A stretch of 62,369 nt of DNA from Candidatus Zhuqueibacterota bacterium. GTDB taxonomy: Bacteria > Zhuqueibacterota > Zhuqueibacteria > Thermofontimicrobiales > Thermofontimicrobiaceae. This document shows, one piece after another, positions 42,001-51,000 of this stretch. The stretch's first letter is position 1, and every line of letters begins with the position of its first letter. The position numbers are program-made. Location: positions 1 to 62,369 of the forward strand of contig JBMOPW010000033.1 in assembly GCA_049322915.1 (NCBI GenBank). The letters are read 5' to 3'.

Positions 42001-45000
42001 CGAGGAGCGATTCCGCGCTCTGTTTGAAACCGCACGGGACATTATATTTATTAAAAATCAGCAATTGCAATATGTGAGCATCAATCCTGCCACGGCGAGC
42101 TTTTTCAAAATGGATCCTGTGAGTTCTGTTGGGTCGACGGACAGAGAGATATTCGGGGACGAGGTAGCTCGTTTCAGTGAGACGATTGAAAGGCGCGTGC
42201 TGGATGGGGACATTGTGGAAATTGAGCAGGCCGGGCCGATTAACGGCTCTGAAAAAATATTTCATGTCATTCGCGCGCCCATGAGAAACAGCCACGGCGA
42301 TATCATTGGACTTTTCGGCATCGCCCGGGATATAACCGAGCTGAAGCTTTCGCGAACCATTCTGGCAGAAGAAAAGGAGCGGCTCGCCGTCACATTGCGA
42401 AGCATTGCCGATGGCGTGATTACCACAGATGTTCATGGTCGCGTCCTCCTCATCAATAAAGTCGCAGAGGGGCTGACCGGCTGGAGCCAGAAAGAAGCCG
42501 AGGGTAAGAAAATTTCGGCCGTTTTCCATTTTGTCGACCGCCGCAATAAACCTCCCAGAAAACTTCCGGTCGACCGGGTACTGCAGACAGGCCGCGTTTT
42601 CAGCATTGAAAACAACACCACGCTCGTTGCCCGCGATGGGAGCGAAAAGATGATCGCGCAGAGTTGGGCGCCGATAAAGGATGAACAGAATAAAGTAGTC
42701 GGCGCCGTTCTGGTATTTCGCGATATTACCGAACGCCGGAAAATCGAACTGGAGCTTCAGAAAGCCAATAAACTGGAATCGGTGGGCATGTTGGCCGGCG
42801 GAATTGCCCATGATTTCAATAATATCCTCACGGCAATTTTGGGCAATGTCACGCTGGCGAAACTGGATGTGCCGGAGAGATCCGAAATATTCGAAATCCT
42901 GTCCGAAGTGGAAAAGGCATCCATGCGCGCCAAAGACCTCACCCAGCAGTTGCTGACGTTCTCCATTGGCGGCGCGCCCATCCGGAAGACAGCCACCATC
43001 AATGAGCTCATCAAAGAATCCACGGCCTTTGCCCTTCGCGGCTCCAACGTCCGATTTGAATTCAACATCCCGGACGATTTATGGACTGTGGAAGTGGACA
43101 TTGGCCAGATGAACCAGGTGATTCAGAATCTGGTGATCAATGCGGATCAGGCCATGCCTGAGGGCGGATTGATCAAAATTCACTGCCGGAATGTGAAGCT
43201 GCCGTCGGACGAGACGATCAATGGTCAGTCCCGGGCGCGCGGCAATTTCGTGAAAATTTCCATTCAGGATCAGGGGCACGGAATTCCGAGCGAACACCTT
43301 GCCAGGGTTTTCGACCCCTATTTCACTACCAAGCAAAAAGGCAGCGGGTTGGGTTTGGCCACTGTGTATTCCATCATCAGAAAACATGAGGGATACATCG
43401 CCGTCGAGTCCACATTGGGCAAAGGGGCGACATTCCATCTCTACCTGCCGGCTTCGGAGAAGAAAGCCACTCCGAAAATCAGCCACGAAAAACTCCTGGT
43501 AACGGGCAAGGGATCAGTTCTGGTGATGGATGATGAGGAGATCATTCGCAACTCATTCGCGCGGATGATCAGGATGCTTGGCTACCAAATCCGGACCGTG
43601 GCGGATGGCGCTGAGATGATCGAAGAATACCGGCGCGCTCAGAAAAGCGGGCAGCGCTACGACGCCGTCATCATGGATCTGACGGTCCCCGGCGGAATGG
43701 GTGGCAAAGAAGCGATCCAGCATTTGAAGCAGATCGATCCGGATGTGAAGGGTATCGTGTCCAGCGGCTATTCCAATGCCCCGGTGCTGTCCAGTTACGA
43801 GGACTATGGCTTTTGTGGCTTCCTGACCAAGCCGTTCAAAATCGAGGAACTGAGCGCCGTTCTTTATAAGGCCATGGCCAGAACATAATCGTCCCTGTGG
43901 AACATCTTTTTCAGAATAAATTCCGAAGAGCCGAACATCGATCCGCCCGAAGTCACAGCGAAATTTCCTGTTTAAGAATGACAGGACGCGCGATGGCCGG
44001 CTGTTTCGAAAATCCGCAGTCTTTCCGAACCAACATGAAAGGAGCCGAATGGATCTTACATGTGTTGCTATCGGCCTGCTTCTTCTTTTAGTGACACTGC
44101 TGCTTCGCGCTGAATTTGCGCAGCCCAACCATTTCATCTATTTTCTCAAACCTGCCTCAACCGTGCTCGTCATTTTCATCGCGCTGTACCCTGTTGTTCA
44201 CGGCGACATTGCTACATCACGATATTTTTTCCTCATTGCGACCGGGCTGGTCTTTTCTCTCGCGGGCGATGTTGCGCTCATGGGCAAATCCGGCCGCTCA
44301 TTTAAGCTGGGATTGATTTTCTTTCTCATGGCTCATATTTTCTATTCGTGGGCTTTCTCGATTCCTGCGGATTTTAGTGCGACGGACGGCTTTGTCGCGC
44401 TTGGACTGCTATGCATGGCCGGCCTGATTTATCGGTATCTGTACCCTGGGCTCGGTCCGATGAAACTACCGGTGCTGATCTATGTTCTGATCATCACTGT
44501 CATGATGGAAAGAGCGATTTCCAGGCTGTACGCCGGCAATTTTCCTCAACAGCGAGCCATGCTCATCGCCATCGGCGCCGGCCTTTTTTATATCTCGGAT
44601 CTGATTCTGGCTATCAACAAATTCCGACGACCGATGCGGTATCATCGAATCAGCCTTGCCTTCTATTATGCAGGTCAACTGCTCATTGCTTTGAGCGTCA
44701 GACCGTAACTGCCATCGTTGAAATTTTCTGCTTGATATTATTCGGGAAGTCGAGTATATTATTCTCTTTTAAAACTGGAGCAATACATGAAAATCACCAA
44801 AGCGGTCATCACCGCAGCCGGAAAAAATCAGCGCACATTGCCGTTGCAGACGCTCATCGACCGGGATGGCACGGAAAAGTCCGTGCTTTGCATTATTGTG
44901 GAAGAAGCGCTGCGAGCGGGGGTAGAAGAGATATGCGTCATCACTCAGCCCGGGGATGACAGCGCCTACCGCCAGGTTGTCGGCGACCATGCCGGGCGTC

Positions 45001-48000: not shown

Positions 48001-51000
48001 CAGGTCGGTCGCTATCTCCCGCATGTCATTACCACTAGTTTTTTGACCCACGAGCCCATTGCCGCTTTTCTGGAGCGAGAAGGAAATTATGGCTATCCCG
48101 GGCAATTGCTGCTGTCGCCGGGCATGAGCGTCGGTTTGAGGCTTGTGCCCATGGCGCGCGATCTCCGCTTTGCCTGGGAAGAATTGCCCCAGCAACTGCT
48201 GGATAAACAGGCGCAAAAGGTGCGGGAGAGCCTGCACAACGCGCTGATCGACTGGGCGCGAACCCTGGGCGAAGGCAGCGATTATGTCGATAATCTTCCC
48301 ATGCAATGTCTTCACCCGGTGGGGCACTGGTACGAAGTGCCAAATCTGCTGCTCAACGGCCTGCTGCAGCGCATGCTCGGGGATCACCCCAACCTGCGAT
48401 ACCTGATGGTGCACAATATCGACACGCTCGGAGCCAATGTGAATCCTGCTCTTTTGGGCTATCACATGCACGAGGATGCCGCAATGACCACGGAGGTGAT
48501 CACGCGGCGTCTCGAAGATCGCGGCGGCGGATTGGCGCGAGTCGATGGGCAATTGCGGCTCATCGAAGGGCTGGCTTTTCCGCGCGAGGAACTGGAATTC
48601 AGCCTGTCCTATTACAACACCAGCACCACCTGGATCGATGTGCTCCAACTCCTCCATCTGTTCGGACTGACGAAGGATGATTTTTCCGACAAAACCCGGG
48701 TCGCGGACTCCGTGCGCAATCTCGCCATGCGAATGCCGACGTACATTACGTTGAAGGATGTCAAGAAACGCTGGGGCAAGGGTCAGGAAGATATTTTCCC
48801 GGTCACCCAGTTCGAAAAACTCTGGGGCGATATGACCGCCCTGTCCGAGTTGAAGCATCGCTTCGTTGTGGTGCCGCGCAGGCGGGGGCAGCAGTTGAAG
48901 GAGCCGGCGCAACTGGATGGCTGGCTCAGGGATGGGTCTGCTGCCTACGTGGAATCTTTATGCGATTGGAATGACCAGAAAGAAGCAATCCGCTTATAGC
49001 GATCAGCATTCAGCTCGGGAAAAAAATTTATTCCCGGCTGGAATTATTGGATCGCTTAATTGATGAACTGCCTTTTTATTTCAAACGCTCGTTTGTTTTA
49101 AAAGCTGACAACTGAAAGCTGATCGCTGATCGCTCAATGCAGGAATAAATAATTTACAGTGATAATTTAACTAACTCAGGAGAAGGAAACGATGAATATT
49201 TTTGAATTCGCGATGAAAATGGAAAAAGACGGTGAGGCCTATTACCGGGAATTGGCTGAGAAAACAACCCATACCGGTCTGAAGAATATTTTGAATCTTC
49301 TGGCCAATGAAGAAGTGAAGCATTATGAAGTCCTCAACAAGCTTAGCAAGCAGGAATCAAATCTGAAGATGGCGGAAACGCATATTCTGGCGGATGCTAA
49401 AAATGTCTTTGTGCAGATGAAAGAGCAGGGCAGCACGTTCGATCTGAAAATGCCTCAGCCTGAATTCTATGAAAAGGCCAGAGAGATAGAAGAAAAGAGC
49501 TATCAGTTTTATCTGGAAAAAGCCCGTGAGGTCGAGGACGAAAGCGCCAGGAAAGTGCTTTTGAAAATCGCGGATGAAGAGAAGAAGCATATTTTCCTCA
49601 TGGAAAATTTAGTGGAGTACCTGTCGCGACCGGGCACGTGGGTGGAAAATGCTGAATTTCATAAACTGGATGAATTTTGATGTGAATGTCTGGGACTGCC
49701 TGAACCGGGAAACCGACTTCGTCTCTTTTCGGATGATACTGGCGAAGCCAATGCTATCTGCGGCGTGGTTGGGCAAAACCTTGTCCGGCACGACGGCCAG
49801 GGCAGGGTGCAGGCCGAATAATTCTTGACTCTTGGAGTACTGTGTGCTGCAACAACTGGATGAGAAAACATTCCTGACAGGGTGCCGCTTTCTGGAAAAA
49901 CGGGACCCTGTTTTTTTGACCATCGTAGGGCAGTTCGGCTATCCCCGCATCTGGTTTCGGGAGCCGGGATTCGCCACGTTGCTCCACATCATTCTGGAGC
50001 AGCAGGTTTCGCTGGCATCCGCGAGAGCGACCTTCCAGCGGCTGCTCGATTCAGTTCCATCGCTCACCCCGGCAAATTTCCTTCGCTTCGATGAAGTCGG
50101 TTTGAAGGGCATCGGATTCAGCCGACAAAAGGCGCGGTACTGCCAGGACTTGGCCGGGCGAATCGAACGCGGCGAGTTGAACCTGGACCAGTTAACCGCT
50201 CTGTCCGACGAAACTGTGCGCACTGAATTGATGGTGGTCAAAGGTGTCGGGCCATGGACCGCAAATATTTACCTCATGATTGCACTGCGCCGGCCGGATG
50301 TGTGGCCCGGCAGCGACCTGGCGCTGATCCAGACAATCCAGGAGTTGAAAGCGCTGAAGCAGCGTCCCACGCCGGCCGAAGCGCAGCAATTCGCCGAAGC
50401 CTGGAAACCCTGGCGCTCCGTGGCCACGCGGCTTCTGTGGCACTATTATCTCAGCCCTAAAACCAATCGTTGAACAAACCCGTTTTTCCTGCTATCCATC
50501 TCCCAGGCATACCCTTGGCCGTATTAGCCACCGGGACAGGCAATCGCCGGGTCAATGCCCGATGATTTGCTGAGTAAAATTTTTTACTTGACATTTTAAT
50601 AGTTTCTACTAAATTATTACTTCACTCCACAAAGAGTTGATGCCTTCAAAATTCGATATTCGTCCTTCTCCGTCAGCATGGGAGAATCGCACTATTTCTA
50701 ATGAACGACCACAGCGAAGCTGGCGGGGGTTCACTGAAAGAAAATGCGCTGCGCGAAGCTGTTGACGGCAATTGGAAAAGATTCATCATTCCTGAATTGA
50801 CGCCTGATCCCGATACGCGGGTGTAGTCGGTTTGAACCTGAACGAAGCGCCGCATATCCGGCGGAGTCAGTCTTCAGGTGAAACCGGGTCATGTTCATTA
50901 CCAGTAATCCAGCGTGAATGACTGTGTGCATTTTTACCGAGCACAGGATACGAACGAAACGTCACGGACACTCATGAAAAGACATATCCTGATAATCGCC

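What a model noticed while it worked through the whole genome (the two positions that open the first line are those of the whole stretch)
44787..48999. Fucokinase-like GHMP kinase fused to a eukaryote-type UDP-sugar pyrophosphorylase
g03354 (1114 aa) joins an N-terminal fucokinase-like GHMP sugar kinase to a C-terminal eukaryote-type UGPase-family domain, with a second nucleotidyltransferase (g03353) directly upstream. It is a sugar-to-UDP-sugar salvage enzyme candidate with the reverse domain order and a different transferase family than Bacteroides Fkp.
Evidence so far: PDB: residues 175-387 match the FKP kinase domain (E 1e-10), 881-1000 match yeast, human and plant UGPase (E 1.5e-6; call 101). 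NCBIfam fucokinase model 176-513, E 3e-19. 7 of 21 relatives, 67-81% identity over the full length; both halves on one ORF with a g03353 homologue adjacent in 5 of 5 loci.
(Added by a program. Inside this text positions count along the whole contig: contig position 1 is position 1 of the stretch shown here. "Call 12" and the like, gene names such as g00115 and contig names such as C1 are that model's own, and its searches are not shown. The text may have been shortened before it was handed on; [...] marks where a part breaks off. The agent that wrote the report below was given it as the finding of a first reader that could run no searches.)

Follow-up and report, generated by a model that had tools for sequence, protein, structure and literature searches.

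The report
Sugar-activating fusion with broken GalU partner
Many soil and sediment bacteria carry an unstudied two-gene unit that probably turns a free sugar into an activated nucleotide-sugar in one protein, helped by a probably non-catalytic copy of a familiar enzyme; neither the sugar nor the nucleotide is known.

Summary
Residues 1-590 match the three-helix linker plus fucokinase domain of Bacteroides FKP. Residues 656-1106 have the eukaryote-type UGPase/UAP fold. Catalytic residues of both halves are invariant in 198 of 198 (kinase) or at least 196 of 198 (transferase) close homologues. The family spans many phyla and databases name it only 'UTP--glucose-1-phosphate uridylyltransferase' or hypothetical.

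1. 'UDP' is not secure. The uridine-pocket Gln and Met are Ser and Thr/Ala/Ser throughout.
2. The upstream 'second nucleotidyltransferase' is a GalU fold lacking the catalytic Lys/Glu and the tetramer contacts, yet it sits beside the fusion in 138 of 150 loci. A sister clade keeps the Lys. A complex prediction gives only weak support for binding to the kinase half.
3. The kinase has an extra Arg in the ATP loop that distant relatives carry in motif 3 instead.

It often co-occurs with FKP, so L-fucose is doubtful. Kinase-first order also occurs in a separate kinase-GalU fusion. Verdict: an unstudied variant of bifunctional sugar-salvage enzymes, with substrate unresolved.

The parts
44732..44760 (+). 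sigma-70-like promoter match (10 of 12) 26 nt before the first gene; position fits, but the count of such sites in the region is not above chance (2 found, 2.8 expected)
44787..45662 (+). P0002, 291 aa: GalU-fold partner. Two deletions remove the GalU K27/K31/E32 loop (8 aa) and the D73 region (about 21 aa). Keeps equivalents of R21, Q109, G114, D137, G179, E201, K202. Probable non-catalytic subunit
45655..48999 (+). P0001, 1114 aa: kinase-pyrophosphorylase fusion, whole gene
45655..46164 (+). residues 1-170: helical region; in the structural alignment with full-length FKP it lies on FKP's three-helix linker (model 6-589 vs FKP 498-949, Z 30.0, rmsd 3.4, 446 aligned)
46165..47424 (+). residues 171-590: GHMP sugar kinase of the fucokinase/HddA type. 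R182, W190, D192, E362, Q372, D373 correspond to FKP R592, W599, D601, E751, Q761, D762. ATP loop has Arg317 where FKP has Gly715
47620..48972 (+). residues 656-1106: PF01704 (UGPase/UAP/USP) fold without the C-terminal beta-helix. R745, K754, G890, H891, N921, D923, E971, Y987, N988, K1082 kept; base pocket T793/S821 instead of Met/Gln

Best explanation
The two genes are a self-contained sugar-activation (salvage) module. The GHMP half uses ATP to phosphorylate a free sugar at C1. The PF01704 half then condenses the sugar-1-phosphate with an NTP to give an NDP-sugar plus PPi. The upstream GalU-fold protein is a subunit that has lost or is losing catalysis, still binds a UDP-sugar, docks on the kinase half and tunes flux, as GalF is proposed to do for GalU.

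Shown: folds, gene linkage and residue conservation. Inferred: activity of both halves, binding and role of the partner.

My odds for the sugar: D-gluco series (xylose, glucuronate, glucose) 35%, L-fucose/D-arabinose/L-galactose 20%, manno/heptose(-phosphate) 15%, L-rhamnose 10%, other 20%. For the nucleotide: UTP 50%, a purine NTP 40%, other 10%.
For: Kinase: all six FKP catalytic/sugar residues are identical in 198 of 198 close homologues (roles from PMC11982464 sections 6, 8, 9). Adenine-pocket positions D244, L245, L267, L324 are kept (alignment A4; 21-23 of 23 in clade B).

Transferase: equivalents of human UGP K127, H223, N251, D253, N328, K396 (PMC5381698 passages) are present in 196-198 of 198; placing K754 and K1082 rests on motif position, not on a printed alignment. 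The sugar pocket is UGPase-like: H891, Y987-N988 vs Arabidopsis H192, F292 and the Asn-X-Asn motif.

Partner: present upstream in 138 of 150 loci; 9 of the other 12 have under 400 nt of contig upstream; its identity tracks that of the fusion (Spearman 0.83, kin not independent). All 6 of 145 host-phylum genomes with the fusion have it adjacent. K31A and E32A cut K. pneumoniae GalU to 0.45% and 1.4%, and K27, K65, D73, R108 hold the tetramer (PMC11796359 passages); P0002 lacks these positions. The host has a separate intact galU. Complex of residues 1-590 with P0002: score 0.55 vs best of 3 controls 0.00 (runs 0.00, 0.55, 0.56; contact agreement at least 4%; partner pLDDT at least 83). This is a weak pass: 18 of 157 solved and both passing mismatches scored 0.60 or under.
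Against: No assay exists. Arg317 replaces a normally conserved Gly of the ATP loop, so kinase chemistry may differ. Neighbouring genes give no consistent sugar clue: no other family recurs near more than 10 of 80 loci, and among 133 and 148 flanking ORFs only scattered nucleotide-sugar genes appear, such as NDP-sugar dehydrogenases in 3 of 148. In clade B the partner keeps the Lys (36 of 36 full-loop copies), so it may be active there. A fucokinase-type kinase gives beta-L-fucose-1-P, which plant USPase does not accept (PMC5609113), so the two halves do not obviously suit one known sugar. The partner is missing in 3 loci with 549-983 nt upstream. One of three complex runs scored 0.
Confidence: 0.6

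Rival explanations
1. Convergent FKP: L-fucose -> beta-L-fucose-1-P -> GDP-L-fucose, with a UGPase fold re-tooled for GTP in place of FKP's own guanylyltransferase.
For: FKP is the only PDB sequence hit of the kinase profile at E <= 0.01. The FKP linker region is retained. W599, D601, Q761, D762 are kept. The base pocket is enlarged, and PDB entries 'Q83S RmlA with dATP' and 'Q83D RmlA with dGTP' (titles only) are a precedent for Gln loss admitting purines. gmd is present in 13 of 14 cassette genomes vs 126 of 187 others (p 0.07).
Against: FKP-like genes occur in 6 of 14 cassette genomes vs 17 of 187 others in Verrucomicrobiota, the opposite of a replacement, though genome size and kinship confound this. 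FKP T602 is Ile and a His is inserted in the sugar motif. The sugar pocket of the transferase is glucose-type. WcbL/HddA ties with FKP by fold (Z 31.6 vs 32.4).
Confidence: 0.15
2. The kinase acts on an already phosphorylated or acidic sugar (HddA/WcbL-like, giving a sugar-1,x-bisphosphate, or on a uronic acid), with the extra Arg binding the second anion; a phosphatase or epimerase elsewhere completes the route.
For: WcbL R13, D22, Q162, D163 (PMC4691232 passages) have counterparts R182, D192, Q372, D373; fold Z 31.6. An Arg is always kept in one of the two phosphate loops: 25 representatives have it in the ATP loop only, 7 (6 clusters) in motif 3 only, 1 in neither, 0 in both, of 33 with both motifs readable.
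Against: No phosphatase or heptose-pathway gene recurs beside the cassette. A bisphosphate would not feed the fused transferase directly. The Arg sits by the ATP phosphates, not clearly at C6/C7; no coordinates were available to check.
Confidence: 0.13
3. The fusion is chiefly a UGPase (Glc-1-P + UTP), as databases name it, and the GHMP half is a non-catalytic sugar sensor controlling it together with the GalU-like partner.
For: Glucose-type sugar pocket; altered ATP loop; the partner keeps UDP-glucose-binding residues.
Against: Every catalytic kinase residue is invariant. The cassette does not replace galU: galU in 2 of 14 cassette genomes vs 37 of 187 others, and the host has intact galU. 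The uridine pocket is changed.
Confidence: 0.1

Closest known systems
FKP, L-fucokinase/GDP-fucose pyrophosphorylase of Bacteroides fragilis (PDB 9IIT, 9IIP; NF009948)
   Same: One chain with a GHMP anomeric kinase and a nucleotidyltransferase; linker plus kinase superpose (Z 30.0 and 32.4); six catalytic/sugar residues shared.
   Different: Transferase is C-terminal and PF01704-type, not the N-terminal PF07959 domain with a beta-helix; 68 of 721 bits on the family model; Arg in the ATP loop, His insertion and T602->Ile; near-obligatory GalU-fold partner gene.
Eukaryote-type UGPase / UAP / USP (PF01704; PDB 2I5K, 2ICX, 9G53)
   Same: Fold (Z 32.9 Ugp1, 32.5 AfUAP1, tied); phosphate-binding and UGPase-like sugar-binding residues.
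   Different: Fused to a kinase; no C-terminal beta-helix; Gln162/Met134 of the uridine pocket, shared by plant UGPase, USPase and UAGPase, are Ser and Thr/Ala/Ser.
Zebrafish glucuronokinase/putative pyrophosphorylase (GKUP; PMC3938481)
   Same: GHMP kinase tied to a bacterial-type nucleotidyltransferase domain with almost no measurable activity (passages).
   Different: There the weak domain is fused N-terminally and no PF01704 domain is described; the kinase is a glucuronokinase. Sequences were not compared here.
GalF of enterobacteria
   Same: GalU homologue that has lost activity and tetramerisation; proposed regulatory subunit (PMC11796359 passages).
   Different: GalF loses R21/T20 by substitution and is said to act on GalU; P0002 keeps the Arg, deletes the K31/E32 loop and travels with an unrelated-fold enzyme. 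It scores 33 of 659 bits on the GalF model.
HddA/WcbL heptose-7-phosphate 1-kinase (PDB 4USK, 3K85)
   Same: Fold Z 31.6 and 29.5; R, D and Q-D motif.
   Different: Stand-alone 345-aa enzymes in heptose clusters; not hit by the kinase profile at E <= 0.01.
~640-aa GHMP kinase + intact GalU fusion (P0409, P0412, P0415, P0418; JGI name 'UTP-glucose-1-phosphate uridylyltransferase/mevalonate kinase')
   Same: Kinase-first order; its GalU part resembles P0002 (30-34% identity).
   Different: Its kinase is not detectably close to this one (hhalign probability 0.4%); transferase is GalU-type with the Lys-Glu loop intact.

Membership tests
GHMP kinase superfamily | GHMP fold | tested here: met
   Z 32.4 vs 9IIP, 31.6 vs 4USK, 27.4 vs mevalonate kinase 1VIS
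GHMP kinase superfamily | catalytic Arg and Asp (FKP R592/D762, WcbL R13/D163) and Glu (E751) | tested here: met
   R182, D373, E362 in 198 of 198
GHMP kinase superfamily | Gly-rich ATP loop P-x-G-S-G-L-G-[ST]-S | tested here: inconclusive
   Loop present but reads [10 protein letters not shown] in the close set (R in 198 of 198); distant members have Gly there
FKP / L-fucokinase (NF009948) | N-terminal PF07959 guanylyltransferase domain and family score | tested here: not met
   No PF07959 hit in P0001 or over cut-off in the host genome; 68 vs 721 bits
FKP / L-fucokinase (NF009948) | fucose contacts W599, D601, T602, Q761, D762 | tested here: inconclusive
   Four of five kept; T602 is Ile/Val, plus a one-residue insertion with invariant His187
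FKP / L-fucokinase (NF009948) | phosphorylates L-fucose | not testable with these tools
   needs an assay
PF01704 UDPGP | profile score above gathering cut-off and fold | tested here: met
   48.8 bits vs 22; Z 32.9
UGPase (UTP:Glc-1-P uridylyltransferase) | uridine pocket G87, M134, Q162, P189, G191 (Arabidopsis numbering) | tested here: not met
   P888 and G890 kept; position 740 is Gly in 157 and Ala in 41 of 198; Q162 is Ser in 198 of 198 and 23 of 23 clade B; M134 is Thr/Ser/Ala. Sequence alignment only, no coordinates.
UGPase (UTP:Glc-1-P uridylyltransferase) | phosphate and sugar residues K127, H223, N251, D253, N328, K396 (human numbering) | tested here: met
   K754, H891, N921, D923, N988, K1082 in 196-198 of 198; the two Lys placed by motif position
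GalU (TIGR01099), for P0002 | catalytic K31 and E32; tetramer residues K27, K65, D73, R108 | tested here: not met
   Deleted or replaced; short loop in 184 of 189 clade-A partners parsed, the other 5 short by eye, a Lys in the segment in 1; 94 vs 327 bits
GalU (TIGR01099), for P0002 | GalU fold and UDP-glucose-binding R21, Q109, G114, D137, E201, K202 | tested here: met
   Z 31.4 vs 5J49; R16 in 68 of 70, Q77, G82, D105, E167, K168 in 70 of 70

The most novel reading that the evidence does not exclude
A widespread heteromeric salvage machine in which a fucokinase-derived kinase phosphorylates at C1 a sugar for which no anomeric kinase has been described (D-xylose, for which a 2019 review says none is identified; or L-rhamnose or D-glucose). 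A UGPase-fold domain with a re-shaped base pocket would then make a purine NDP-sugar, the first such use of the PF01704 fold that I know of (recalled). A catalytically dead GalU would sense the UDP-glucose pool and gate the kinase.
Probability: 0.3. Interest if true: 0.8.

Novelty: new variant of a known kind. Interest (0 to 1): 0.58.

Why it matters
The cassette is highly conserved (mostly 50-80% identity) across Chloroflexota, Verrucomicrobiota, Acidobacteriota, Planctomycetota, Bacteroidota, Armatimonadota, KSB1 and others, yet its kinase half is invisible to Pfam and it is labelled as a plain uridylyltransferase. One-pot sugar-to-NDP-sugar enzymes are valued tools for glycan synthesis (FKP is the model). 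A second scaffold with a different sugar or nucleotide would widen that toolbox and could supply a missing anomeric kinase. The partner shows a stepwise decay (intact relative, Lys kept but Glu lost in clade B, loop deleted in clade A) while staying linked, which is a clean case for studying how a pseudoenzyme subunit arises.

Tried and rejected
Neighbourhood: clustering of all ORFs in 80 GTDB and 70 metagenome loci and Pfam scans of 133 (of 145 first-rank; 12 over 800 aa left out) and 148 (of 154) flanking ORFs found no conserved third gene.

Three-domain fusions: long proteins holding both P0002- and P0001-like parts have clusters of one or two members among those looked up and show frameshift-like stretches or truncation. 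I treat them as read errors, not as fusion evidence.

ROK and inositol-monophosphatase domains in the giant proteins P0145 and P0161 were not used as pathway evidence, since these look like mosaics of unrelated enzymes.

PPi as phosphate donor: set aside because the adenine-pocket residues are kept.

Replacement of galU: not supported. FKP exclusion test in the family of G021: uninformative, 1 of 121 genomes for each gene.

No RNA run was listed for the stretch. No Rfam match in 43000-51000. ESM Atlas gave only the family's own clusters and weak TPR/HEAT look-alikes for residues 1-170. USP entries were not among the 50 rows shown by the fold search.

Literature: searches listed no paper describing this family; 62 and 63 (residue numbers) listed nothing; two listed nothing relevant by title and abstract start. 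The library lacks most subscription journals and I read no supplements, so a prior mention cannot be excluded. Earlier scan findings were not available.
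Full report
OBSERVATION. The window holds a 291-aa ORF at 44787-45662 (P0002) and a 1114-aa ORF at 45655-48999 (P0001), overlapping by 8 nt, with GGAGG 10 nt before the second ATG. Pfam sees only PF01704 in P0001 and PF00483 in P0002.

ANATOMY. An AlphaFold2 model from a 74-row alignment (pLDDT 90.3, pTM 0.89) matches FKP-CTD over 143-589 (Z 32.4, rmsd 2.8, 354 aligned), WcbL over 171-594 (Z 31.6), yeast Ugp1 over 659-1104 (Z 32.9, rmsd 3.6, 351 aligned) and fungal UAP1 (Z 32.5) (Foldseek agrees). Against full-length FKP the alignment runs from model residue 6 to 589 and FKP 498 to 949 (446 aligned). The N-terminal helices therefore correspond to FKP's three-helix linker (abstract of PMC11982464), and the kinase half looks like FKP without its own transferase domain. 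A kinase-half profile hits only FKP in the PDB at E <= 0.01. The transferase half stops before the beta-helix of UGPases.

DISTRIBUTION. All 8000 scored candidates passed E <= 0.001, and the best 120 are at least 70% identical over 97-100% of the length. The 80 kept loci come from Chloroflexota, Verrucomicrobiota, Acidobacteriota, Bacteroidota, Planctomycetota, Armatimonadota, Calditrichota and others. It is patchy: 6 of 145 genomes in the host's phylum and 14 of 201 in a sample of Verrucomicrobiota. Distant members include Omnitrophota proteins, one with the transferase first (P0239, Ca. Kaelpia imicola), and a protein of the oxymonad Blattamonas nauphoetae. Where sources name the proteins, it is 'UTP--glucose-1-phosphate uridylyltransferase', hypothetical, or in two cases 'galactokinase/mevalonate kinase-like predicted kinase'.

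KINASE HALF. In FKP, R592 and D762 are catalytic, E751A and D762A are inactive, and W599, D601, T602, Q761 bind fucose (PMC11982464 sections 6, 8, 9). The counterparts R182, W190, D192, E362, Q372, D373 are identical in 198 of 198 rows (query, 119 top hits, 78 locus ORFs, partly redundant). T602 is Ile, and an invariant His187 is inserted. The adenine-pocket positions are kept. The ATP loop carries Arg317 where FKP has Gly715, in 198 of 198. Among 33 representatives with both phosphate loops readable (of 62 with the ATP loop), 25 have the Arg only there, 7 (6 clusters) have Gly there and an Arg in motif 3, 1 has neither and none has both. One extra Arg at the phosphate site is thus a family trait; its job is unknown.

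TRANSFERASE HALF. Equivalents of human UGP K127, H223, N251, D253, N328 and K396 (PMC5381698, passages) are present in 196-198 of 198 rows; the two lysines were placed by motif position. The sugar pocket is UGPase-like: H891 and Y987-N988 match Arabidopsis H192, F292 and the first Asn of Asn-X-Asn, the second being variable (PMC5609113 section 16). That section lists G87, M134, Q162, P189, G191 as the uridine pocket common to UGPase, USPase and UAGPase. An ungapped profile alignment to the Arabidopsis enzyme over its residues 108-163 puts T793 on M134 and S821 on Q162. S821 is Ser in 198 of 198 and 23 of 23 clade-B rows; 793 is Thr, Ser or Ala. Two smaller side chains suggest a larger base. 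PDB titles for RmlA Q83S with dATP and Q83D with dGTP are a precedent; that these variants accept purines is recalled. This is an alignment argument without coordinates, so UTP stays possible.

PARTNER. P0002 folds as GalU (pLDDT 95; Z 31.4 vs 5J49). Against the host's own galU and two intact relatives that have no fusion beside them, it has an 8-residue deletion covering K27, K31 and E32 and a roughly 21-residue deletion covering the D73 region. In K. pneumoniae GalU, K31A leaves 0.45% and E32A 1.4% activity, and K27, K65, D73, R108 are needed for the active tetramer (PMC11796359, passages). The short loop is found in 184 of 189 clade-A partners parsed, and the other five are short by eye. 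UDP-glucose-binding positions are kept in 68-70 of 70. A second clade (49-59% identical to P0001) has a full-length loop with the Lys but Ala, Gly or Ser for Glu32 in 36 of 36. In those 70 loci, 26 more were classed short (one, L133, is by eye full-length without the Lys), 5 were cut and 3 had no partner. Over all 150 loci the partner is upstream in 138; 9 of the rest lack room and 3 lack it. A predicted complex with residues 1-590 scored 0.55 against 0.00 for the best of three controls (runs 0.00, 0.55, 0.56; agreement at least 4%; partner pLDDT at least 83). The tool calls this weak support, more often wrong than right unless likely beforehand. The C-terminal half was not tested.

WHICH SUGAR. 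Flanking genes are nearly random. NDP-sugar dehydrogenases, epimerases and glycosyltransferases appear beside a handful of loci and point to no single sugar. In the Verrucomicrobiota sample, cassette genomes carry galU in 2 of 14 (others 37 of 187), gmd in 13 of 14 (126 of 187) and FKP-like genes in 6 of 14 (17 of 187; Fisher p 0.002, overstated because kin and genome size are not controlled). Co-occurrence with FKP argues that the cassette salvages something other than L-fucose. Against that, four Bacteroidota cassette genomes and the host have no FKP, but FKP is rare there anyway. Plant USPase does not take beta-L-fucose-1-P. A glucose-type transferase pocket favours a sugar with gluco configuration at C1/C2 (inference), which includes xylose, for which a review says no kinase has been identified (PMC6329318, passages).

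COMPARISON AND NOVELTY. It works like FKP or zebrafish GKUP (PMC3938481, passages) but is a member of neither. Kinase-first order also exists in an unrelated ~640-aa GHMP+GalU fusion. What I could not find described is the pairing of an FKP-type linker-kinase with a PF01704 domain, the changed base pocket, or the linked degenerate GalU. The library omits most subscription journals and no supplements were read. Regulatory pseudo-nucleotidyltransferases such as GlgD and GMPPA are recalled parallels, not checked here.

VERDICT. Real, widespread, misannotated and readily testable: a new variant of bifunctional sugar-salvage enzymes. Interest 0.58. The main open questions are the sugar, the nucleotide and the partner's role.

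Noticed in passing
P0409, P0410, P0412, P0415, P0418: A separate ~640-aa family: GHMP kinase followed by an intact GalU-like domain, named in Planctomycetota records; a likely second kinase-first salvage enzyme. I did not search the literature for it specifically.
   Followed up: partly
P0152 (KAK2962578.1): The oxymonad Blattamonas nauphoetae encodes a 1292-aa homologue (32% identity over the full length) with a degenerate nucleotide-binding loop; possible gene transfer from bacteria, not tested by a tree.
   Followed up: partly
P0239 (MDP8216141.1): Ca. Kaelpia imicola homologue has the PF01704 domain first and the linker-kinase second, so the two halves have been shuffled within the family.
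   Followed up: partly
P0145, P0161, P0272: Giant proteins (2318-3096 aa) embed the whole module; P0145 and P0161 also carry ROK domains and P0145 an inositol-monophosphatase domain. They resemble giant mosaic proteins of Omnitrophota (recalled).
   Followed up: no
L092:8357-9271 and L093:8026-8940: Stand-alone GalU-like genes of the partner's subfamily with the Lys-Glu loop intact and no fusion gene in those genomes; they look like the ancestral state of P0002.
   Followed up: partly
G000:C30:21313-22970: The host's intact galU is directly preceded by another GHMP kinase gene.
   Followed up: no
window 53012-60093: Two CooC-like ATPases, a CO dehydrogenase-like ORF (54615-56564) and a 1178-aa ORF suggest a CODH/acetyl-CoA synthase cluster; judged from translations and recalled motifs only.
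   Followed up: no
window 44049-44708, 49192-49680, 49832-50473: Flanking genes are YhhN, rubrerythrin-like and HhH-GPD glycosylase families, unrelated to the cassette; a short GC-rich inverted repeat follows the fusion's stop at about 49016-49039.
   Followed up: partly
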